The notes beneath the pieces were generated by a model. It was not told the origin of the DNA, did not search any database, and saw only the letters and a program-made list of their open reading frames with translations. A stretch of 64,000 nt of DNA from Vicinamibacterales bacterium (GTDB lineage Bacteria; Acidobacteriota; Vicinamibacteria; Vicinamibacterales; JAMQPK01), in assembly GCA_963730445.1 (NCBI GenBank), contig CAVSRX010000006.1, positions 26,082 through 90,081 on the forward strand, read 5' to 3'. The translations under genes and the position numbers were made by a program. Every line of letters begins with the position of its first letter. Positions within the stretch are counted from its first letter, which is position 1. Shown here piece after piece: positions 5,709 to 60,483 of this stretch.

Positions 5709-6547
5709 ATGATGCATCGCACTCTGCGATTACTGGGCACGGTTCTTTCGTTATTTCTGATCGCATCGTCCGGCTGGCAGCCCGCGCGAGCCCAGACGCA
5801 GCCCGCCGCGCAGACGCCCGAGGTGCAGATCTACGAGAAGTTCAGGGCATGGGCCACCAAACAGCCGCCGGCGCAGGGAGTCAATATCCTCGATCAGTAC
5901 CGGAAGGTGCTTGCAGGCGAAGGGTTGAGTGCTGCCGAGATCGAGCGTCAGGTCCGGGTCATCACCGAGCAGGGGGATCGGCTCGAAGTCGAGCGATGGA
6001 ATCGTATCCTCACGGCGCCGAAGCCTGCGTTCAACACCAAGCCGAACGCGTTCCTCGTCGAGACGACGAAAGGCATCGCGCCGGGCAAGGCGCTTGACGT
6101 CGGAATGGGTCAAGGACGCAACACCCTGTACTGGCCCAGCAGGGATGGGCCGTCACCGGATTTGATCCGGCGGAAAAAGCTGTCGCTGCTGCGCAAGACC
6201 AGGCAAAGCAACTTGGCGTAAAGATGACGACCCTGGTCGTCGGCGATGAGCAGTTTGACTTCGGCAACGAGCAGTGGGATCTCATCGTTCTGAGCTATGT
6301 AAGCCTGCGCCATCTCGTCCCACGCATCGTCGATGCGCTCAAGCCGGGAGGTTTGGTCGTGGTGGAAGGCTTTCATCGTGACGCAACCAAGAACGCTTCG
6401 ATTGGCGGTGGTGTCGTCTTCGATACGAACGAGCTGCTGACACTTTTCGAGCGTCTGCGCGTTGTGCGTTACGAGGACACCGCCGGCACCGGCGATTTCG
6501 GCTTGCAGGCGACCCGCCTCGTGCGGTTGGCGGCACAGAAGCCGTGA
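5709..6547 (+). CDS. class I SAM-dependent methyltransferase with N-terminal signal/extra domain; one frameshift near 6131
   Basis: ORFs 5709..6221 and 6224..6547. ALDVGMGQGRNTLY continues in the next frame as (L)AQQGWAVTGFDPAEKAVAAAQDQAKQLGVKMTTLVVGDEQFDFGNEQWDLIVLSYV..LKPGGLVVVEGF. One base appears to be missing after TAC at 6129-6131. Confidence 0.7.
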
Positions 6548-9071: not shown

Positions 9072-9113
9072 CATTTGCCAGGTCGCGACGCTGAGCCGCA
9101 GAGGCGCGGAGAA

Positions 9114-9590
9114 ATGGCCGAACCGACGATCATTCGAGAGCAGGTGCTCGCACTGGTGGCACAACGCGGCGTCGCGTTGGCGCCGACGTGCCGGATTTCT
9201 GCGTTCGGGGACTCCTCTTTTATGGCAGCGAAGCTTGGGCGGCTCGTCGCGGCTGGGAAGAAGACGGCGACAAGTTCATTGCTGTGGGATTGGGAGGCGG
9301 ATGGCGAACCAATACCTGCTGCCGGAGAGGCAGAAATCCTGGTGGAATGGAGCGGCATCCCGTACGCGGTGATTCTCACCACAGACGTGAGGATTGTTCC
9401 GTTTCACGCCGTTCCGGAAGATTTCGCCTCGGCCGAGGGAGAAGGTGATGGCTCTTTGGAATGGTGGCGCACCACTCATTGGGAATTTTTTGGCAAGGTG
9501 TGCGCCAGAATTGAACGCACGGCCACGAGCGAAATGCCCGTGGTATGTCAGCGATTCACGATGGTTCATGATCTTCGTGAATGTCACCTG
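9114..9590 (+). CDS. ASCH domain protein (3' end uncertain)
   Basis: Within ORF 9075..9920 from MAEPTIIRE. FGDSSFMAAKLGRLVAAGKKTATSSLLWDWE..ILVEWSGIPYAVILTTDVRIVPFHAVPEDFASAEGEGDGSLEWWRTTHWEFF. ASCH-like text ends around ..VVCQRFTMVH. The ORF has no stop before 9920 but its tail overlaps the DinB gene, so a lost or shifted stop near 9570-9591 is likely. Confidence 0.6.
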
Positions 9591-25819: not shown

Positions 25820-25820
25820 A

Positions 25821-25884
25821 ACCACGAAGGCGCGACGAGCACGAAGACGTGCAGTCGACGTAGATCGTCGCGTCTTCGTGTTCG
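25821..25884 (+). repeat. CACGAAG-word hairpin with GTAGATCG apex
   Basis: Directly after the TGA stop: ACCACGAAGG CGCGACGA GCACGAAGACG (8-nt words). CACGAAGACG (25840-25849) pairs perfectly with CGTCTTCGTG (25871-25880). Inner stem CGACG/CGTCG with loop TAGAT. Confidence 0.75.
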
Positions 25885-25893
25885 CATTCAATC

Positions 25894-34821: not shown

Positions 34822-34862
34822 GTACTCCTGGCTTTTGGCTGTCCCTGCCACAGACTTTACTA

Positions 34863-35171
34863 TCTCGACACAGAGGCACGGAGGCACAGAGTTCGAAATC
34901 CGACACACGCCGAGTGGCCTTGTGCCCTGTGCGCCAGGGAACTCCGTGGCGCGCGTTGACGTGGCGCCGTAGGCGCCACCGGACAAAACACAAGGCACAA
35001 ACACAAGACCGTAGATCGAGTCGGTCTTGATGTTTGTACCTTGTGCTTTGTCCGACGATGGCCGCGCAGCGGCCATCGTGTCAACGCGTCGCCCGTGTCT
35101 CCGTGTTGAGGACAGCAAAGATCAACTGTCTCTTTGCTTTCCTCTGCGCCTCTGCGTCTCTGTGTCGAGAC
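34863..35171. repeat. gene-free nested imperfect palindrome of about 310 bp between convergent genes
   Basis: Outer arms 34863-34891 and 35141-35170 are reverse complements apart from 4 transitions. Central 31/32-nt arms are 34981-35011 and 35022-35053 with loop TAGATCGAGT. Side hairpins lie at 34961-34979 (8 bp) and 35055-35079 (11 bp perfect). See findings. Confidence 0.85.
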
Positions 35172-35225
35172 AGCGAGTGTCTGGTGCAGACGCGTTCAGA
35201 AATCTCCAATAATTCTCCTGCTCTT

Positions 35226-36011: not shown

Positions 36012-36046
36012 CTTAGCTTGTAGCTGGTGGCCTGTAACTTGTAGCC
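36012..36046 (+). repeat. left inverted-repeat arm (GTAGCYN heptamer words) of the cupin cassette
   Basis: CTTAGCTTGTAGCTGGTGGCCTGTAACTTGTAGCC. TAG/TAA at 36014, 36021, 36035 and 36042 (7-nt period). The reverse complement of 36737-36770 matches about 29 of 34 positions. Confidence 0.8.
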
Positions 36047-36053
36047 TTCGAGC

Positions 36054-36443
36054 ATGGAGAAAGTGAATCTCGCTCAGAAGCTGTCACAGATCGGAGAGTA
36101 CTGGCGACCCAAGGTCGTCGGCGAGCTCAACGGCCAGGAGGTGAAGCTCGTCAAATTCAAGGGCGAGTTCGTGTGGCATCATCACGAGCACGAGGACGAG
36201 CTCTTTCTCGTCGTGCGCGGCACGTTCCGTGTCGAGTTTCGCGACCGCGTCGTCACGCTCGCAGAAGGTGAATTCGTCATCGTCCCTCGGGGCGTCGAGC
36301 ACCGAACGGCTGCGGATGCTGAAGTCCACGTGCTGATCTTCGAGCCTGCGGCAACGCGGAACACCGGGAACATCGAGCATGAGACATTGACCGCGCCGAA
36401 TAGGTGGCGATCATTTGTAACAGTTTCATCCGGGAGGTTGTGA
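36054..36443 (+). CDS. cupin domain protein
   Basis: 129-aa ORF. YWRPKVVGELNGQEVKLVKFKGEFVWHHHEHEDELFLVVRGTFRVEF..EGEFVIVPRGVEHRT. Confidence 0.8.
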   Translation: MEKVNLAQKLSQIGEYWRPKVVGELNGQEVKLVKFKGEFVWHHHEHEDELFLVVRGTFRVEFRDRVVTLAEGEFVIVPRGVEHRTAADAEVHVLIFEPAATRNTGNIEHETLTAPNRWRSFVTVSSGRL

Positions 36444-36515
36444 TGTCTCTCGAAACGGACACCACGTTACAGAAGTCCCTCGAATTCCATTGACAGTATT
36501 CGCAAGCGCATTTAC

Positions 36516-36734
36516 ATGTCGGGCTGGATTGTTGTCGCGGTCACCATCGGGATGTACGCGCGCTTCGCATACCTTCAGCGGACTACGGACGACTTCGAGC
36601 GGCTGCTCAGCGCAGCGGTCTCCGCGTTGAGCTTCCTGATTGTGTGGGCCGCATTCGCAGTTATCATGTGCGTCATGCGGATGACCAAGCGAATTATGCG
36701 CGCGATTGAATTGTCGTCTCGCGCGCCGAGCTAG
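36516..36734 (+). CDS. small hypothetical membrane protein (2 TM)
   Basis: 72-aa ORF. GWIVVAVTIGMYARFAYL and LSFLIVWAAFAVIMCVM. G+C is lower than in the neighbours. No homolog recognised. Confidence 0.4.
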   Translation: MSGWIVVAVTIGMYARFAYLQRTTDDFERLLSAAVSALSFLIVWAAFAVIMCVMRMTKRIMRAIELSSRAPS

Positions 36735-36736
36735 CT

Positions 36737-36772
36737 GGCTACGAGCTACAGGCTACCAGCTACGAGCTACTA
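36737..36772 (-). repeat. right inverted-repeat arm of the cupin cassette
   Basis: GGCTACGAGCTACAGGCTACCAGCTACGAGCTAC. CTA at 36739, 36746, 36753, 36760 and 36767, which gives TAG on the minus strand at a 7-nt period. Confidence 0.8.
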
Positions 36773-48681: not shown

Positions 48682-48724
48682 TACCTAGAGATCTATAGAT
48701 CTTAGATCTATAGATCTTTAGGTA
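48682..48724. repeat. AT-rich 43-nt near-perfect palindrome built from TAGATCT words
   Basis: TACCTAGAGATCTATAGATCTTAGATCTATAGATCTTTAGGTA. Only one non-central mismatch pair (G:T). Four AGATCT. 13 of 43 bases are G/C. TAG at 48686, 48696, 48703, 48711 and 48719 covers all frames. Confidence 0.85.
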
Positions 48725-49130: not shown

Positions 49131-49215
49131 GGGTTCCAGGTTCCAGGTTCAGGTTGCGTCCAGGTTCCGGTTCCGGGTTCTGGTTCCGCGTCCAGAACCT
49201 GGAACTCGGAACCTG
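49131..49215 (+). repeat. GGTTCCR-word array ending in a 22-23 bp hairpin
   Basis: GGGTTCCAGGTTCCAGGTTCAGGTTGCGTC, then CAGGTTCCGGTTCCGGGTTCTGG (49161-49183), loop TTCCGCGT, then CCAGAACCTGGAACTCGGAACCTG (49192-49215). One bulge and one mismatch. Confidence 0.8.
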
Positions 49216-53952: not shown

Positions 53953-54476
<524 letters not shown>

Positions 54477-54486
54477 TGGAGGCGTC

Positions 54487-54895
54487 ATGCTGAGAGCGAA
54501 GACTCGCATCGGCGGTCGTCGTGGTGGCGATGGTGTGGATTGGATCGGCGGTTGTGGCGCAGACGCCGGGTACCGCCGGCGCTCTCGTGCTGAACCCGAT
54601 CGCGGCAACCTCGGGCACCGGCGTGAGCAATGCGCAGCTCATCAACCGCGACGAGATTCGCGTGCTGCGCGTCGACGTGGTGCCGGGCGGCGTGCGCAAC
54701 ATTCACTCGCACGACGACATGCAGTATCACCTCTTCATACCGACGGCGGCCGGCATGCAGTTCGAGAGCGCGTCGGAGAAGCCGGCACAGATGGCGGCGT
54801 GGCAGGCGCAATTCGTCAAGGGCGGCACCCAGCACGGCTTCAAGAACACGGGCTCGTCCACCGTGACGATCGTGGAAATTTTCGTCAAGAAGTAA
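54487..54895 (+). CDS. exported cupin domain protein (start region frameshifted, or GTG 54521 start)
   Basis: ORF 54521..54895: RVLRVDVVPGGVRNIHSHDDMQYHLFIP..FVKGGTQHGFKNTGSSTVTIVEIF. ATG 54487 (MLRAKTRI) lies one frame off the hydrophobic AVVVVAMVWIGSAVVAQ segment. Confidence 0.7.
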
Positions 54896-55130
54896 CCACG
54901 AAGACACGAAGGCACGAAGAGCGCGAAGACACGATGAAATGCCGCGTCACGCGTTCTTCGCGGCTTAATCGCGGCTTCGATTGCGCCGGCTGCAAAGCAA
55001 GCCGCCGCCGTGAGAACAACGGCAAAACATGAATGGCTGGAGCGAAACCAATTCATGTTCTTGCCGTTGTTCTCACGGCGGCGCCGACGGCGCGCAATCG
55101 AAGCGTAGCCTTCGAGCCTTCGTGTTCGTA
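54896..55130. repeat. gene-free nested palindrome with CACGAAGR-word arms
   Basis: Word array CACGAAGA CACGAAGG CACGAAGA GCGCGAAGA CACGA (54898-54934). Partner CCTTCGAGCCTTCGTGTTCG (55109-55128). Perfect 13-bp pair GCTTCGATTGCGC (54975-54987) with GCGCAATCGAAGC (55091-55103). Central 31/32-nt arms 55004-55034 and 55051-55082, one bulge, 16-nt loop. Confidence 0.85.
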
Positions 55131-55146
55131 TTTTTGTGATCGGGAA

Positions 55147-55176
55147 CTCTGCGTCTCTGCGCCTCTGCGTCGAGAC
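55147..55176 (-). repeat. CTCTGCGY-word unit, dispersed copy of the 35142-35171 arm
   Basis: CTCTGCGT CTCTGCGC CTCTGCGT CGAGAC matches CTCTGCGC CTCTGCGT CTCTGTGT CGAGAC at 35142-35171 at 27 of 30 positions. Both lie just 3' of a minus-strand gene. Confidence 0.8.
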
Positions 55177-55185
55177 GGGCAAAAG

Positions 55186-55815
55186 CTATGGTTTGGGAAT
55201 TCTCAGCGTCGCGCTGATCATCGCGCTGCCGCTCACGCCGTAGACGAGGGCCATCGGGTGGAGCAGCGCGGGGCCGATCTGGTAGGCGCCGAACCACAGG
55301 CGATCGTCGATGCGCCCTAGATATGACGCGACGCCGAGCAGCAGGACGATGACGATGCTCGTCGGTATCGGCGTGCCCTCGAAATATTTCACCTTGCCGG
55401 TCTCACTGTCGGAGAGCGCGGCGGCCGTCACGTTGAAGCGGGCGAGACGGCTGACGCCGCAGATGACGAAGTAGGTGAGGATGAGCATGTCCCATCCTCC
55501 CCGCATGCCGAGCGTGAAGCCGAGCACGGCCGGCGCGACGCCGAACGAGATGACGTCGGCCAGCGAGTCGAGATCGGCGCCGAGCACCGACTGCCGCCGG
55601 CGGTTCAGCCGCGCCACATAGCCGTCCAGCACGTCGCACACGAGCGCGAGCGGCAGCAGCAGGAAAGCCGTCCACAGGAACCGCCGGTTGTCCGCGGCGA
55701 TGTAGTCGAGGCACAGGAAGATGGCGATCGTGCCGCACGCCGCGTTGCCGATCGTCAAGGCGTCGGCGGGCGTGTAGGACCGCAGCATCGACATGTGGCG
55801 GCGCTGTGTGTTCAT
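55186..55815 (-). CDS. pssA: CDP-diacylglycerol--serine O-phosphatidyltransferase (CDP-alcohol phosphatidyltransferase family)
   Basis: ORF 55186..56010(-) trimmed to MNTQRRHMSMLRS (ATG 55815; alternative ATG 55794). DVLDGYVARLNRRRQSVLGADLDSLAD matches the D-G-x2-A-R..G-x3-D-x3-D motif. Confidence 0.85.
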   Translation of the reverse strand: MNTQRRHMSMLRSYTPADALTIGNAACGTIAIFLCLDYIAADNRRFLWTAFLLLPLALVCDVLDGYVARLNRRRQSVLGADLDSLADVISFGVAPAVLGFTLGMRGGWDMLILTYFVICGVSRLARFNVTAAALSDSETGKVKYFEGTPIPTSIVIVLLLGVASYLGRIDDRLWFGAYQIGPALLHPMALVYGVSGSAMISATLRIPKP

Positions 55816-58128: not shown

Positions 58129-58934
58129 CTAAATCCATCGTACTCATCGCGCTGATGCTCACCGCCACCGTATCGGGCCAGCAGAAGCCGGCGCCAATCG
58201 GCTACGACGACACGCCCATGCAGCCCAACGGGAAGTGGCGCGTGCACCAAACCGCGCGCCCGTACCCGGCCGTCATCACGCCGCCACCGGCCGGCGGTCC
58301 TGTCGCGCCTCCATCCGACGCCATCGTGCTGCTCGGTGCGGCCGACGATCTCAGCGCGTGGCAGATGGACGATGGATCGGCAGCCACATGGGCGATGAAG
58401 GGCGGCGTGCTGCACACAGGCAAGGGGATGCTGCGCACCAAATACCAGTTCACCGATGTGCAGCTGCATGTCGAGTTCGCGACGCCGTCCGAGGTGAAAG
58501 GCGACAGCCAGGGACGCGGCAACAGCGGCGTGTTCCTGCTCGGCCACTTCGAGATCCAGGTGCTCGACAGCTATCGCAACATCACGTATGCCGATGGCCA
58601 GGCCGCGTCGATGTACGGGCAGTATCCGCCGCTCGTGAACGTGGCGCGCGCGCCGGGAGAGTGGCAAGCCTACGACATCATCTTCAGAGCGCCGCGTTTC
58701 GCCGGCGACGGACAACTCGCGAAGCCTGCCCTCGTCACCGTGCTGCACAATGGCGTCGTCGTGCACCACGCCACGCCGTTCTGGGGCCCGACGCGCCATC
58801 GCAGCGTCCTGCCCTACACACCGGCCATGGCGAGGGGACCGCTCGCCCTGCAGGACCACGGAAACCCCGTCCGCTATCGCAATATCTGGATTCGCGCGCT
58901 GAGGGATTACGACACCGGGGGTGACGGGTGGTAG
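58125..58934 (+). CDS. DUF1080 (3-keto-disaccharide hydrolase) family protein, exported
   Basis: Intact 269 aa. GNSGVFLLGHFEIQVLDSY, PGEWQAYDIIFRAPRF, VLHNGVVV, GPLALQDHGNPVRYRNIWIR. Confidence 0.85.
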   Translation: MTKSIVLIALMLTATVSGQQKPAPIGYDDTPMQPNGKWRVHQTARPYPAVITPPPAGGPVAPPSDAIVLLGAADDLSAWQMDDGSAATWAMKGGVLHTGKGMLRTKYQFTDVQLHVEFATPSEVKGDSQGRGNSGVFLLGHFEIQVLDSYRNITYADGQAASMYGQYPPLVNVARAPGEWQAYDIIFRAPRFAGDGQLAKPALVTVLHNGVVVHHATPFWGPTRHRSVLPYTPAMARGPLALQDHGNPVRYRNIWIRALRDYDTGGDGW

Positions 58935-59017
58935 CTACTAGCTGGTAGCTGGTAGCTTGTAGCCGGTAGCCTGTAGCACGTGGCTGTAGCTCGAAGCTGA
59001 TAGCTTGTAGTTAGTAG
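58931..59017 (+). repeat. GTAGCTN heptamer array (about 13 units), left inverted-repeat arm of the four-helix-bundle cassette
   Basis: GTAGCTA CTAGCTG GTAGCTG GTAGCTT GTAGCCG GTAGCCT GTAGCAC GTGGCT GTAGCTC GAAGCT GATAGCTT GTAGTTA GTAGCGG. TAG at 58932, 58939, 58946, 58953, 58960, 58967 and 58974. Spans the whole gap between two convergent stops. Confidence 0.9.
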
Positions 59018-59385
59018 CGGCCCTCCGGGCGCATGGATGCGATCAGGCCGTTCAACATCTTGCCCACTTCTTCGACGATTTCTTGAATCCGATCGTAGTC
59101 ATGCGTGGCGAGAAACCCCACACGCTTTGCGATTTCTAGCTGAACTTCGACCTCGGCCTGAGACCCGAGCGCGATGTCGAGGTGATTCAAGAATACTGTC
59201 TGACGCTTGCGGCGTTTTCCCTCACCGATGTTTGAAGGAATTGAAACGCTTGCCCGACGGATCTGAGACGTGAGGCCAAATTGCTCGGAGCGCGGGAATG
59301 ATTTGGTGACGCTGTAAATTTCCTCAACGAGCGTCATCGATCGCTGCCACACCGTCAGATTGCGAAACGATTCATGGTTAGTCAT
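59011..59385 (-). CDS. four-helix-bundle protein (TIGR02436 / 23S rRNA intervening-sequence protein / Avd-like family)
   Basis: ORF 59011..59490(-) trimmed to ATG 59385. MTNHESFRNLTVWQRSMTLVEEIYSVTKSFPRSEQFGLTSQIRRASVSIPSNIGEGKRRKRQTVFLNHLDIALGSQAEVEVQLEIAKRVGFL.. Confidence 0.85.
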   Translation of the reverse strand: MTNHESFRNLTVWQRSMTLVEEIYSVTKSFPRSEQFGLTSQIRRASVSIPSNIGEGKRRKRQTVFLNHLDIALGSQAEVEVQLEIAKRVGFLATHDYDRIQEIVEEVGKMLNGLIASMRPEGRY

Positions 59386-59494
59386 GCTGCGACAGGCTGC
59401 AAGGTGCGTGCTGCGCAGAATTGCGGGAAATCGCGAGATTTCATGTAGACGTTGCAATTTCTGCGATCCGCAGGATCGCAATTTCTGCAACGCC

Positions 59495-59565
59495 CGGCTA
59501 CCGGCTACCGGCTTATGGGCTACCAGCCACAGGCTACAAGCTACCGGCTACCAGCTACCAGCTAG
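59495..59565 (-). repeat. right inverted-repeat arm (reverse-complement GTAGCYN heptamers, about 10 units)
   Basis: CGGCTAC CGGCTAC CGGCTTATG GGCTAC CAGCCAC AGGCTAC AAGCTAC CGGCTAC CAGCTAC CAGCTAG. CTA at 59498, 59505, 59520, 59534, 59541, 59548, 59555 and 59562. Confidence 0.9.
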
Positions 59566-59596: not shown

Positions 59597-60394
59597 ATGA
59601 GATCGTTATTGATTGCCACTGCGCTCCTCATTGCGCAGCCTGCGTTCGCGCAGCTTGCGCCGCACAACGAAGCGGGCGTTACCTTCGGACATGTGCATCT
59701 GAGCGTAGCCGACCCGAAGGTGCATCATCAGATGTGGGTGGAGCAGTTCGGCGGTGTGGTAGCCACCAAGGGCACCTTCACCATCGTGAAGCTGCCCAAC
59801 ATGATGATCGCCTTTCGCGGCACGAAGCCGACGGGCGGCACCGAGACGACGGCGCTGAACCACTTCGGGCTGAAGGTGCCGAGCATGGCCAACGCCATCG
59901 CAAAGTGGAAAGCCGCGGGCTACGAAGTACAGCGCGAGTTCAAGGGCAGCGAGGGATTTCCGAACGCGTTCCTGATCGGTCCCGACGGCCTGCGCTTCGA
60001 GCTCCAGGAAGACACCACGTTGAAGGCGCCGGCCGTCGCGTATCACCTGCACTTCCAGGTGCCCGAGCCGGCGAAGCTTCGCGATTGGTACGTGGACACC
60101 TACGGGCTGAAGGCCGGCAAGCAGGGCAACTTCGAAGTGGCCGAGGCGCCGGGCATGCGGTTGCTGTTCGCGCCCTCGAAGGAAGCGCCCACGATGGGCA
60201 CGCGCGGCACGACGGTCGATCACATCGGCTTCGAGATTCGCAATCTCGCCGAGTTCCTGAAGAAGCTCGAGGCGAAAGGCATCAAGCTGGAGACCGCGTA
60301 TCGCGAGATTCCGGCGATCGGCCTCAACATCTCGTATCTCTACGATCCGTTGAACGTGTATATCGAGATGACGGAAGGGTATACGGGGTACTGA
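59597..60394 (+). CDS. two-domain VOC family protein, exported
   Basis: GGAGGA then ATG 59597. MRSLLIATALLIAQPAFAQ. FGHVHLSVADPKVHHQMW..NHFGLKVPS and ..YHLHFQVPEP..VDHIGFEIRNLAEFLKKLEAKG. Confidence 0.8.
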   Translation: MRSLLIATALLIAQPAFAQLAPHNEAGVTFGHVHLSVADPKVHHQMWVEQFGGVVATKGTFTIVKLPNMMIAFRGTKPTGGTETTALNHFGLKVPSMANAIAKWKAAGYEVQREFKGSEGFPNAFLIGPDGLRFELQEDTTLKAPAVAYHLHFQVPEPAKLRDWYVDTYGLKAGKQGNFEVAEAPGMRLLFAPSKEAPTMGTRGTTVDHIGFEIRNLAEFLKKLEAKGIKLETAYREIPAIGLNISYLYDPLNVYIEMTEGYTGY

Positions 60395-60450
60395 GTCGAA
60401 GAGTCGAAGAGTCGGAGAGAGTCGAAGAGTCGGGGAGTCGAAGAGTCGGG
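60393..60450 (+). repeat. tandem octamer array GAGTCGRR x7
   Basis: GAGTCGAA GAGTCGAA GAGTCGGA GAGAGTCGAA GAGTCGGG GAGTCGAA GAGTCGGGG. Starts inside the TGA stop (60392-60394) of the VOC gene. Confidence 0.85.
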
Positions 60451-60483
60451 GCGATGGCGGTGAGCTGTCGCCCCGTTTTGTTT

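What the first reader, a model, noticed from the sequence alone, without database searches (positions are those of the whole stretch)
54896..55176. Second gene-free nested palindrome, sharing word families with loci 20 and 29 kb away
Seen: between the convergent cupin (stop 54895) and pssA (stop 55186) genes lies a word array, CACGAAGA-CACGAAGG-CACGAAGA-GCGCGAAGA-CACGA (54898-54934). Its inverted partner is CCTTCGAGCCTTCGTGTTCG (55109-55128). A local stem CGCGAAGA/TCTTCGCG lies at 54923-54961, and a perfect 13-bp pair joins 54975-54987 with 55091-55103. The central hairpin has 31/32-nt arms, GCCGCCGTGAGAACAACGGCAAAACATGAAT (55004-55034) and ATTCATGTTCTTGCCGTTGTTCTCACGGCGGC (55051-55082). A separate unit follows, CTCTGCGT-CTCTGCGC-CTCTGCGT-CGAGAC (55147-55176). 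It is 27/30 identical to 35142-35171 and, like that copy, lies just 3' of a minus-strand gene. The CACGAAG opening right after the stop matches 25821. Inference: at least three word families (GTAGC, CACGAAG, CTCTGCG/CACAGAG) are dispersed. Modular combination of arms at different loci suggests a family of composite elements rather than independent local slippage.
Basis: partly seen in the sequence, partly recalled or inferred. Interest (0 to 1): 0.65.

Follow-up and report, generated by a model that had tools for sequence, protein, structure and literature searches.

The report
Gene-less hairpin with octamer-repeat arms
This is a 230-base non-coding hairpin between two converging genes of a soil acidobacterium; its arms are runs of an 8-letter word (CACGAAGN) that also build hairpins in about 14 bacterial phyla, where they often enclose a small nuclease-like gene, so it is most likely a gene-less relative of those little-studied cassettes.

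Summary
Window 54897-55125 is a nested palindrome, with RNA fold z = -8.6 on the + strand and -11.5 on the - strand. A solitary repeat arm follows at 55147-55176. The genome is a Vicinamibacterales acidobacterium.

It gives 9 double-unit hits in the window against 0.17 expected.

The word is not private to this genome. CACGAAGN x3 occurs in more than 120 stretches from about 14 phyla, usually as 5'-CACGAAG...CTTCGTG-3' hairpins with a shared stem base (TTNAC / GTNAA). The same arms flank small genes: GxxExxY PD-(D/E)XK proteins (3 of 4 places not chosen for repeats, against 0 of 5526 background windows) and one 23S-rRNA-IVS four-helix-bundle gene.

About 40 orthologous loci were recovered; at the 32 where the spacer could be measured or partly read, it is 0-8 bp, a bare array, a hairpin of other words, or this element. 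Within the species the element is inherited vertically and drifts at about the flanking rate. Its interior has no second copy in 1.45 Mb. In relatives, interior palindromic blocks come and go.

Best reading: an ORF-less, IVS-like word-array palindrome that forms a long RNA duplex at both convergent 3' ends. RNase III processing or an insulator role is inferred, not shown. Whether it moves is open.

The parts
54521..54895 (+). Upstream convergent gene, a cupin-like protein (relatives are 133-134 aa, so the true start is probably about 10 codons further upstream). Its TAA stop (54893-54895) is part of the element's stem base TAAC.
   Evidence: ORF list. 289 homologues, named 'quercetin dioxygenase-like cupin' by JGI, in Vicinamibacterales MAGs.
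54897..54934 (.). 5' arm: an octamer array CACGAAGA CACGAAGG CACGAAGA (G)CGCGAAGA CACGA. It is preceded by the stem base T-A-A-C (54893-54896).
   Evidence: (D2, I2, I3). The terminus consensus TTNAC|CACGAAG comes from 74 hairpins in other phyla.
54915..54966 (.). Local side hairpin: CGAAGAGCGCG pairs with CGCGTTCTTCG around an internal loop.
   Evidence: I4; MFE structures.
54971..54986 (.). 5' half of the second nested stem. Its perfect 13-bp core (54974-54986) pairs with 55092-55104.
   Evidence: I6.
54987..55004 (.). Small side hairpin CGGCTGCAAAGCAAGCCG.
   Evidence: MFE structure; I8.
55003..55083 (.). Central hairpin with 23/23 + 9/9 bp arms, one bulged base and a 16-nt loop. No second copy in the held sequence. 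Strain L229 differs by only 1 substitution and 2 indels.
   Evidence: (I1, I15).
55092..55104 (.). 3' half of the 13-bp stem. It is preceded by a small hairpin GCCGACGGC (55083-55091).
   Evidence: I6.
55108..55129 (.). 3' arm (G)CCTTCGAG CCTTCGTG, followed by the stem-base variant TTCG. The end CTTCGTGTTCG[C/T]ATT is shared with 25874-25887, and the TTGAA/TTCAA variant occurs in other phyla.
   Evidence: One compensatory G-C to A-T change (54912/55109) in strain L229.
55130..55146 (.). Linker containing a T-run (TATTTTTG). Together with the small hairpin 55113-55128 it gives a weak terminator-like match on the + strand.
55147..55176 (.). Solitary 3' arm of the same word family (CTCTGCGT CTCTGCGC CTCTGCG = reverse complement of CGCAGAG) plus the stem base TCGAGAC. 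It has no 5' partner in this strain. It is homologous to the right arms of orthologous spacers, and 27/30 identical to the right arm of the 34860-35173 element.
   Evidence: (I9).
55186..55800 (-). Downstream convergent gene, a CDP-alcohol phosphatidyltransferase (pssA-like). Homologues are 200-209 aa, so the real start is near 55790, not 56010.
   Evidence: Pfam PF01066, E = 5.5e-18; gene calls in L002-L005.

Best explanation
The element is an ORF-less member of a widespread and, as far as I could find, undescribed class of extragenic 'word-array palindromes'.

**Arms.** The arms are inverted tandem arrays of the octamer CRCRRAG+N, here CACGAAGN and CGCAGAGN. The polarity is fixed: the purine-rich word is always on the 5' arm, whichever strand is read. 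The stem base is conserved (TNAC|CAC...GTG|GTNA or TCGA|CAC...GTG|TCGAG).

**Relation to gene cassettes.** In many phyla the same arms enclose a small gene: a GxxExxY PD-(D/E)XK protein or a four-helix-bundle '23S rRNA intervening-sequence' protein. The architecture is that of a 23S rRNA intervening sequence sitting outside rRNA. This copy has no gene.

**History at this locus.**
- The element sits directly after the stop codon of one of two convergent genes.
- It has been inherited vertically within its species.
- It is remodelled quickly at deeper divergence. Units are gained and lost by slippage. Interior palindromic blocks appear by local inverted duplication (template switching).

**Likely action (inferred).** Any transcript that runs out of either convergent gene folds into a branched hairpin, about 105 pairs in the predicted fold. 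That makes it a natural RNase III substrate, a barrier to 3' exonucleases and a transcript insulator, as for rRNA intervening sequences.

**Shown:** the structure, family membership of the arms, the gene association, the phylogenetic spread and the turnover at the orthologous site.
**Inferred:** RNA-level processing or insulation, and template-switch growth.
**Open:** how the arms spread.
For: **Structure.**

**One word family.** CRCRRAGNCRCRRAG gives 9 hits against 0.17 expected. Orthologous right arms interconvert among CTTCGCG, CTTTGCG, CTCCGTG, CTCTGTG and CTCTGCG, all followed by TCGAG.

**Spread across phyla.**
These include cultured isolates (Thiohalophilus, Streptomyces, Blastomonas, Thiomicrorhabdus).
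- 71 of 120 stretches carry both orientations of the word.
- Pairs no more than 250 nt apart are 65 in the 5'-CACGAAG..CTTCGTG-3' order against 12 in the reverse order.
- The terminus consensus is TTNAC|CACGAAG...CTTCGTG|GTNAA.
- Permuted-word controls in viral contigs give 9 and 8 stretches with no inverted pairs, against 32 stretches with 4 pairs for the real word.

**Gene association.**
- GxxExxY genes (TIGR04256, E = 3e-41) lie between the arms in L109, L116, L120 and L124; in L047 only the upstream array met the two-unit pattern.
- The same holds in 3 of 4 places chosen only for contig length (L214, L224, L225). Background is 0 of 5526 windows.
- One 23S_rRNA_IVP gene (L045) lies between CACGAAG arrays; the other six held IVP genes are flanked by inverted arrays of other words.

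**Precedent.** The Coxiella 23S IVS has tandem heptamers (GACAGAT, variable copy number) at its RNase III site, upstream of the S23p ORF, and is excised by RNase III (PMC4990558).

**Turnover at the orthologous spacer.**

**Interior blocks come and go.** L001 has about 125 nt more than L183 on the same backbone. The interior has no second copy in 1.45 Mb.

**Vertical inheritance.** Strains L175 and L229 carry the same element.
Against: - No GxxExxY gene, and no IVP gene with CACGAAG arms, was found in the window or in about 150 kb of related Vicinamibacterales sequence. A link to a gene-bearing copy in this genome is therefore unproven.
- Against strain L229 the element has diverged 7.6%, with about 6% in the flanks. 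9 stem substitutions break pairs, 5 keep them, and only 1 pair is compensated. Selection on the structure is at best weak.
- The free eighth bases of opposite arms are complementary in only 48% of cases against a 36% null.
- There are no target-site duplications and no recognisable transposase.
- The context bias toward 3' ends is weak: 15 convergent, 21 tandem, 7 divergent, from crude gene calls.
- Nothing here measures RNA, RNase III cleavage or termination.
Confidence: 0.6

Rival explanations
1. The element is an active non-autonomous mobile element, MITE- or REPIN-like. The whole element, or its arms, is moved in trans by a GxxExxY PD-(D/E)XK nuclease encoded elsewhere in the genome, in the way REPINs depend on RAYT transposases.
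For: - Inverted arms with fixed polarity and conserved termini across phyla.
- The same arms flank a nuclease-family gene whose D...E-x-K catalytic residues are intact.
- ORF-less copies outnumber gene-bearing ones by roughly 10 to 1 in the sample.
- Patchy presence and absence at the orthologous spacer.
- Dispersed copies with homologous interiors in one planctomycete MAG (L024 and L056).
- Zero substitutions in the 290-nt element between the window and L175, against 22 in 1017 nt of flanking coding sequence. This could reflect recent exchange.
Against: - No second copy of the interior.
- No target-site duplication.
- No GxxExxY gene in the sequence held for this lineage.
- Strain L229 shows ordinary vertical drift of the same element.
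- Elements in one genome usually share only their arms, not their interiors (L071/L072, L032/L069, L006/L068).
- No activity of GxxExxY proteins is known (no PDB or PADLOC match).
Confidence: 0.25
2. The element has a purely local origin. It would be a bidirectional terminator or 3'-end stabilising hairpin that grew in place by replication slippage and template-switch inverted duplication. On this reading the word resembles those at other loci and in other phyla by convergence, for example because purine-rich, Shine-Dalgarno-like words are favoured.
For: - It lies between convergent genes, starting at the stop codon.
- A hairpin followed by a T-run at 55113-55138.
- Hairpins built from quite different words occupy the same spacer in relatives: L005 GAWCAGAA, L178 AGTCGKC, L189 CTATAGAT.
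- The interior has no second copy in the held sequence.
- Copy number varies between orthologs.
- At 9097-9111 a two-unit array supplies the GGAG just upstream of an ATG.
Against: Convergence does not easily explain three things:
- an identical 23-nt string in more than 120 stretches from about 14 phyla, with a shared stem base and fixed polarity;
- the 3.5- to 4-fold excess over permuted words, together with the exclusive occurrence of inverted pairs;
- the specific flanking of GxxExxY genes.

In addition, the consensus flanks have TT upstream and AA downstream, the opposite of an intrinsic terminator.
Confidence: 0.2
3. The element encodes a specific structured RNA, such as a small RNA, a riboswitch-like element or an antisense regulator of the cupin or pssA gene.
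For: Strong predicted fold on both strands. The central hairpin is conserved in three strains.
Against: - No Rfam family reaches threshold. The only sub-threshold hits are generic microRNA-precursor hairpins.
- No promoter-like site.
- The spacer is absent or unrelated in most orthologous loci, although both genes are conserved.
- The fold is equally good on both strands, which is typical of DNA palindromes.
Confidence: 0.03

Closest known systems
23S rRNA intervening sequences (IVS) with or without an S23p / four-helix-bundle ORF (Salmonella, Leptospira, Coxiella)
   Same: A long stem made from inverted flanks encloses either nothing or a small ORF of the PF05635 family. In Coxiella the stem region carries tandem heptamers of variable copy number at the RNase III cleavage site (PMC4990558). 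Distribution is sporadic and horizontal transfer is suspected. In the window itself a PF05635 gene (59011-59385) lies between inverted heptamer arrays.
   Different: This element lies between protein-coding genes, not in an rRNA helix. No rRNA gene carried a CACGAAG array inside it. RNase III excision is untested here. The arms are octamers of a word that recurs across phyla, and they are more often associated with GxxExxY genes.
REP / BIME elements and REPINs with their RAYT transposases
   Same: Extragenic imperfect palindromes, often at 3' ends and between convergent genes. They form mosaic combinations of inverted units. A single-copy gene is flanked by the same repeats in inverted orientation. 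Non-autonomous copies are many. Known effects include mRNA stabilisation.
   Different: There is no GTAG head and no Y1 (IS200/IS605-type) transposase; the associated gene is a PD-(D/E)XK-fold protein or a four-helix bundle. The arms are tandem arrays of an octamer rather than a single 20-40 nt palindrome. The same word is shared across phyla, whereas REP sequences are species-specific.
STRR (short tandemly repeated repetitive) heptamers of heterocystous cyanobacteria
   Same: Tandem 7-nt words in intergenic DNA, several word families per genome, able to extend helices of structured RNAs such as RNase P RNA. Function is unknown. (Own knowledge: Mazel 1990, Vioque 1997. STRR is also mentioned in PMC2858038.)
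   Different: A different phylum, period (8 here) and words. The inverted pairing with fixed polarity and the enclosure of GxxExxY or IVP genes have not, to my knowledge, been described for STRR.
TAACTGA heptamer direct repeats of Beggiatoaceae, Cyanobacteria and Bacteroidetes (PMC4679880)
   Same: One specific short word in tandem arrays is shared by distant phyla, with no known transfer mechanism. The arrays are intergenic and often just upstream of start codons, like the GAAAGTA arrays in this window.
   Different: Those arrays are almost all direct repeats without an inverted partner (1 indirect repeat among 170 sets), and they are not reported to enclose genes.
MITEs (for example Correia / NEMIS, RUP, ERIC) and integron attC sites
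   Same: Terminal inverted repeats, hairpin-forming transcripts and presence/absence polymorphism. For attC, an imperfect palindrome with short conserved ends (RYYYAAC...GTTRRRY), loosely resembling TNAC...GTNA.
   Different: There is no target-site duplication and no parent insertion sequence. With attC the cassette gene lies beside the hairpin, not inside it; attC sites come in arrays next to an integrase and are 57-141 bp long without tandem words.

Membership tests
   54897-54934 against 55108-55124. Polarity in other phyla is 65:12.
   The left end is TAAC|CACGAAG. The right end is CTTCGTG|TTCG, the TTGAA/TTCAA variant seen in other phyla. The solitary arm ends in CTCTGCG|TCGAGAC.
   The interior is about 170 nt of nested palindromes with no ORF and no tblastn similarity. 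This copy is the ORF-less form, which is also the majority form elsewhere.
23S rRNA intervening sequence (IVS) | Inserted in a 23S rRNA helix (helix 9, 25 or 45) | tested here: not met
   The element lies between a cupin gene and a pssA-like gene. No rRNA was found in the window by Rfam.
23S rRNA intervening sequence (IVS) | Long stem formed by inverted flanks, optionally enclosing an S23p ORF | tested here: met
   The stem is met and the ORF is absent. An ORF-bearing example lies in the same window at 58929-59565.
23S rRNA intervening sequence (IVS) | Excised from the transcript by RNase III | not testable with these tools
   Needs RNA end mapping in wild type against an rnc mutant.
REP / BIME / REPIN | 20-40 nt imperfect palindrome with a conserved GTAG head | tested here: not met
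   The arms are tandem CACGAAGN units with no GTAG head. GTAGC words exist in the window, but as heptamer arrays at other loci.
REP / BIME / REPIN | Associated RAYT (Y1 transposase) gene flanked by the repeats | not tested
   The ORFs of the window were not scanned exhaustively for PF01797. The genes found between such arms elsewhere are PF13366 and PF05635.
REP / BIME / REPIN | Tens to hundreds of copies per genome | not testable with these tools
   Only 64 kb of this genome is available. It holds 4-5 CRCRRAG-array sites.
MITE | Terminal inverted repeats plus a direct target-site duplication | tested here: not met
   TIR-like arms are present, but the flanks (AAGTAAC ... TTCGTATT) contain no direct repeat.
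Integron attC site | RYYYAAC...GTTRRRY core sites, 57-141 bp, located beside (not around) cassette ORFs, in arrays near intI | tested here: inconclusive
   The termini only loosely resemble the core sites. The size (about 230 nt), the tandem words and genes lying inside the arms argue against. The attC covariance model was not available.
Intrinsic (Rho-independent) terminator | GC-rich hairpin followed directly by a U-tract | tested here: inconclusive
   A small hairpin plus T-run at 55113-55138 on the + strand. The family-wide flanks are TT upstream and AA downstream, not a U-tract.
Rfam RNA families | Score at or above a family's gathering threshold | tested here: not met
   No hit in the whole window. 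Only sub-threshold microRNA-precursor hairpin matches to the central hairpin.

The most novel reading that the evidence does not exclude
CRCRRAG-octamer-armed hairpins and the GxxExxY PD-(D/E)XK genes they enclose form a cross-phylum selfish system. The nuclease-fold protein recognises or cuts the word-array hairpin, as DNA cruciform or as RNA stem, and so propagates both gene-bearing cassettes and a much larger population of gene-less hairpins such as this one. The system would be a nuclease-based analogue of RAYT/REPIN and the extragenic counterpart of rRNA intervening sequences. It would tolerate insertion directly after stop codons and inside operons because RNase III excises it from transcripts.
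Probability: 0.3. Interest if true: 0.8.

Novelty: new variant of a known kind. Interest (0 to 1): 0.62.

Why it matters
Small extragenic palindromes (REP, BIME, MITEs, STRR, rRNA intervening sequences) are common but mostly unexplained. This window leads to three points:
1. One specific 8-nt word builds hairpins in about 14 phyla.
2. The same arms flank two very abundant families of small proteins with no known function, GxxExxY/PF13366 and 23S_rRNA_IVP/PF05635.
3. Gene-less copies are the majority.

If this holds up, it gives both protein families a genomic context (cassettes enclosed by a processing stem) and a testable substrate (the word-array hairpin). It would also connect rRNA intervening sequences to a much larger extragenic population. 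And it would explain why acidobacterial, planctomycete and verrucomicrobial intergenic regions are full of 7-8-nt tandem repeats.

For genome annotation, these arrays can be mistaken for CRISPR-like repeats or drawn into ORF calls. The L214 GxxExxY call starts inside the arm, and in L034 an array is read as the N-region of a signal peptide.

The element in this window is by itself an ordinary, apparently near-neutral member.

Tried and rejected
- **Bradyrhizobium-type repeat (first guess from GC content).** Rejected. Homologues of the flanking gene are all from Vicinamibacterales or soil metagenomes.
- **Rfam.** Nothing at gathering thresholds in the whole window. Sub-threshold hits are generic microRNA hairpins.
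- **Dispersed copies of the interior.** blastn of 54896-55186 against all 1.45 Mb held finds only the orthologous copy (L175) and matches to the arrays.
- **True rRNA IVS location.** Universal rRNA motifs found one rRNA operon among the loci (L110). The array there lies downstream of the operon, not inside 23S.
- **parS or DnaA-box resemblance of the termini (TTTCAC/GTGAAA).** Rejected, because the middle base of TTNAC is free (A 25, C 20, T 24, G 5).
- **Integron attC.** Considered because of TNAC/GTNA. Rejected on architecture, since the gene lies inside the hairpin. The attC model could not be run.
- **Strong purifying selection.** Zero substitutions against L175 suggested it. The third strain, L229, shows 7.6% divergence with mostly uncompensated stem changes. 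The L175 identity is better read as locally recent shared ancestry or recombination.
- **Homology of the central hairpins of the window and L001.** Marginal only (p about 0.04). No covariation claim is made.
- **Defence-system or structural annotation of GxxExxY.** No PADLOC hit and no PDB sequence hit.
- **Literature.** String searches for the arrays found nothing relevant. Family-name searches found only passing mentions.
- **Context of the hairpins relative to genes.** Only a weak excess of convergent over divergent, from crude ORF calls.
Full report
**1. The observation.**
- An octamer array lies at 54897-54934 (TRF period 8).
- Its inverted partner lies at 55108-55124 (15/17 complementary).
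- A local stem lies around 54915-54966.
- A perfect 13-bp pair joins 54974-54986 with 55092-55104.
- The central hairpin has 23/23 + 9/9 bp arms at 55003-55083.
- A separate CTCTGCGN x3 + CGAGAC unit lies at 55147-55176. It is 27/30 identical to 35142-35171, and no shuffle gave a match.

The whole region folds far better than dinucleotide shuffles: z = -8.6 on the + strand, -11.5 on the - strand, and -9.3 with DNA parameters. The 3' unit alone does not fold significantly (z = -0.8). Two independent metagenome assemblies carry the same element (L175, L229), so it is not an assembly artefact.

**2. Organism and setting.**
Homologues of the cupin-like protein come only from soil metagenomes and from MAGs named Vicinamibacterales (Acidobacteriota). 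The window is dense with 7-8-nt tandem arrays in intergenic DNA:
- GAAAGTA x5 upstream of the cupin gene;
- GAGTCGAA x7 after the glyoxalase-like gene;
- a GGTTCCA hairpin at 49132-49215;
- CTATAGAT at 48685;
- GTAGC heptamers as inverted arrays around 36054-36734;
- GTAGC heptamers around a 23S_rRNA_IVP / four-helix-bundle gene at 59011-59385.

A second large nested palindrome with CACAGAGG/CACGGAGG arms lies at 34860-35173 (z = -12.8). A small CACGAAG hairpin lies at 25820-25885, directly after a stop codon.

**3. One word family, not two.**
CACGAAG, CGCGAAG, CACGGAG, CACAGAG, CGCAGAG (the reverse complement of CTCTGCG) and CGCAAAG are single-step neighbours that fit CRCRRAG. Two tandem units of that consensus occur 9 times in the window against 0.17 expected, all at the sites above plus 9097.

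In orthologous spacers the arm next to pssA reads as follows:
- L191: CTTCGCGCCTTTGCG|TCGAGTCGGGCAAATG
- L183: ...GTCTCCGTG|TCGAGACAG
- window: CTCTGCG|TCGAGACGGGCAAAAG

So the window's 'separate unit' is an old right arm of the same family that has lost its left partner in this strain. In L001 it still pairs with CACGGAGACACGG.

**4. The word is shared across bacteria.**
By record title these come from about 14 phylum-level groups, including cultured isolates.
- 71 of 120 stretches also hold the inverted array.
- Among pairs no more than 250 nt apart, 65 read 5'-CACGAAG...CTTCGTG-3' and 12 read the reverse order. This polarity is the same on both strands.
- The stems continue outside the arrays with a shared base, TTNAC|CACGAAG...CTTCGTG|GTNAA. 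The window has TAAC on the left, using the cupin stop codon. On the right it has the TTCG variant.
- Nested combinations with other word arrays occur elsewhere too (L118, L119, L026, L007).
- In viral contigs the real word gave 32 stretches, 4 of them with inverted pairs. Two permuted words gave 9 and 8 stretches with no pairs. This is a modest but consistent excess.
- No paper in the library contains these strings.

**5. The arms enclose small genes.**
Arm-to-arm distances cluster at 8-250 nt and again at about 415-530 nt.
- GxxExxY genes, about 131-138 aa (TIGR04256, E = 3e-41; PF13366), fill the longer interiors in L109, L116, L120 and L124, and one adjoins the arrays in L047.
- In L045 it is a 23S_rRNA_IVP gene.
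- To remove selection bias I took GxxExxY homologues chosen only for contig length. In 3 of 4 distinct places a CRCRRAG array lies just upstream and the inverted array just downstream. The fourth place has the right arm only. Background is 0 of 5526 windows.
- One of these cassettes sits between the E1-beta and E2 genes of a 2-oxoacid dehydrogenase operon. In one contig an IVP gene sits one gene further upstream.
- All seven IVP genes held are flanked by inverted 7-8-nt word arrays: GGTAGCY, CACGAAGG or GGAGACA.
- The Coxiella 23S IVS, which carries an S23p ORF, has tandem heptamers of variable number at the RNase III cleavage site and is excised by RNase III (PMC4990558).

The architecture is therefore that of an intervening sequence outside rRNA, and the window's element is its ORF-less form. 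ORF-less forms outnumber gene-bearing ones by about ten to one in the sample.

**6. Evolution at this locus.**
Across the 32 orthologous loci where the cupin-pssA spacer could be read in whole or part, it takes these forms:
- 0-8 bp in eight loci;
- short and plain in about nine;
- a CACGAAG array directly after the stop codon, with no paired right arm: complete in L003 and L185, cut off by the contig end in L193;
- a minimal hairpin in L191 and L192;
- hairpins built from other words in L005, L178, L189, L204 and L176;
- the full element in the window, L175 and L229;
- a related but differently filled element in L001 and L183.

On a neighbour-joining tree, array-bearing and empty spacers are interspersed. 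This means repeated gain or loss.

L001 and L183 share both ends of the backbone, but L001 has about 125 nt of extra palindromic interior. In that interior, one new stem half is the inverted copy of sequence already present in L183. That is what template-switch inverted duplication would produce (inference).

Within the species:
- L175 differs from the window by 3 indels and no substitution in 290 nt, against 22 substitutions in 1017 nt of flanking coding sequence.
- L229 differs by 22 substitutions and 5 indels (7.6%), against about 6% in the flanks. It has one compensatory G-C to A-T change in the outer arm, and otherwise mostly uncompensated changes.

I read this as vertical inheritance with near-neutral drift. 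The L175 identity probably reflects locally recent shared ancestry or recombination. There is no strong evidence of selection on the structure.

**7. What it does.**
Nothing here measures function. The facts are:
- a long branched hairpin, about 105 pairs in the predicted fold of the 301-nt region;
- a position that starts at the stop codon of one convergent gene and ends 10-60 nt from the stop of the other;
- symmetry on both strands;
- a known precedent in which such stems are RNase III substrates.

From these I infer that read-through transcripts from either gene fold into an RNase III-cleavable, exonuclease-blocking stem that insulates the two transcription units. A weak terminator-like hairpin plus T-run exists on the + strand. 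The family-wide flanks do not look like terminators.

The purine-rich 5' arm resembles a string of weak Shine-Dalgarno motifs. In gene-bearing cassettes it lies directly upstream of the start codon. This would explain the fixed polarity and its inheritance by gene-less copies (inference).

**8. Comparison with known kinds, and novelty.**
The element works like REP/BIME elements, REPINs, MITEs and rRNA intervening sequences, but it fails the defining tests for each:
- no GTAG head and no RAYT gene;
- no target-site duplication;
- not located in rRNA;
- genes lie inside the arms rather than beside them, unlike attC.

Cyanobacterial STRR heptamers and the cross-phylum TAACTGA arrays (PMC4679880) are the nearest precedents for tandem short words shared across lineages. 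I found no description of inverted CRCRRAG octamer arms, nor of their association with GxxExxY and IVP genes.

I class it as a new variant of a known kind. The strong reading, a nuclease-driven mobile system, is possible but unproven.

**9. Caveats.**
- Only 64 kb of this genome is available.
- The genome scan was truncated, and its loci were selected by the pattern itself.
- Most sequences are MAG contigs.
- My gene calls outside the annotated loci are crude.
- The unbiased GxxExxY sample is small (four places) and drawn from relatives of one query.

Noticed in passing
window 58929-59565: A 23S_rRNA_IVP / four-helix-bundle gene (59011-59385, minus strand; PF05635 E = 2e-38, TIGR02436) lies between inverted arrays of GTAGC heptamers (58929-59018 and 59494-59565). 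This is an intervening-sequence-like cassette between two ordinary genes. The gene is present at the same place in L002, L003 and L004, but absent in L005, where the spacer is 90 bp.
   Followed up: partly
window 36014-36047 and 36727-36772: Inverted GTAGC-type heptamer arrays flank a two-ORF unit: 36054-36443, a cupin-like protein with a weak GMP_PMI C-terminal hit, and 36516-36734, with no family hit. The unit may be another cassette enclosed by word arrays.
   Followed up: partly
window 34860-35173: A second large nested palindrome lies between convergent DUF885 and Sir2 genes (RNA fold z = -12.8). Its outer arms are CACAGAGG/CACGGAGG with stem base TCTCGA|...|TCGAGA. Inside are three side-by-side hairpins, one of them built from CACAAGG/CACAAAC words. 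In L004 the Sir2 gene follows its neighbour after 17 bp, so the element is absent there.
   Followed up: partly
window 54438-54475; L001 1335-1365; L004 9910-9992; L005 9925-9994: GAAAGTA heptamer arrays sit directly upstream of the cupin start codon in all four lineages, with different copy numbers. The same word also lies upstream of other genes in L004 (196, 668, 3435). These are direct arrays without an inverted partner, resembling the TAACTGA 5'-UTR arrays of Beggiatoaceae.
   Followed up: no
window 60385-60454; L003 11520-11598; L005 14731-14752: GAGTCGAA/GAGTCGGG octamer arrays lie directly after the stop of the glyoxalase-like gene. The position is conserved across three lineages, with copy number from about 3 to about 10.
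   Followed up: no
window 49132-49215 and 48685-48721: A GGTTCCA heptamer hairpin (z = -6.95) and a self-complementary CTATAGAT array occupy two successive tandem-gene spacers. GGTTCCA/GGAACY arrays recur in L003 at 194-436. CTATAGAT fills the cupin-pssA spacer in L189.
   Followed up: no
window 9097-9111: A two-unit array, CGCAGAGGCGCGGAG, ends 3 nt before an ATG at 9115. The word itself supplies the GGAG Shine-Dalgarno motif of the next ORF.
   Followed up: no
L214-L223 (GxxExxY at 1201-1632); L219 1-204: A GxxExxY gene with CACAAAG/CTTTGTG arms sits between the E1-beta and E2 genes of a 2-oxoacid dehydrogenase operon, and was read on 20 contigs. In L219 a 23S_rRNA_IVP gene occupies the position upstream of the E1-beta gene. 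These small genes sit inside essential operons. The called GxxExxY ORF starts inside the 5' arm.
   Followed up: partly
L034, about 6385-6407 on the minus strand (Vicinamibacterales MAG): A CACGAAGN x3 array lies inside an apparent ORF start. It would encode the positively charged N-region of a signal peptide (MKQPRRHEGTKRRTLVLLAAAA...). Either the array has been co-opted into coding sequence or the ORF call is wrong.
   Followed up: no
window 54869-55188 against L175: A 320-nt tract with no substitution (3 small indels) coincides exactly with the element. The flanking coding sequence and other spacers differ by 2-5%. The third strain, L229, does not show this. A local recombination tract is the likeliest cause.
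   Followed up: yes
L194, L196, L197, L190 (cupin-pssA spacer): In four more distant lineages an extra gene of about 1 kb, resembling an NAD-dependent epimerase/dehydratase by eye, lies between the cupin and pssA genes. In L197 it is followed by a GATGGAC heptamer array. In L190 the gene looks truncated.
   Followed up: no
L024, L056, L074, L079, L108, L100: In some genomes whole hairpin units, or units of 27-155 nt that contain CACGAAG arrays, are themselves tandemly or dispersedly repeated with homologous interiors. Examples are two contigs of one Planctomycetota MAG and a Chloroflexota MAG. So in some lineages the family does behave as a multi-copy repeat with a conserved interior.
   Followed up: partly
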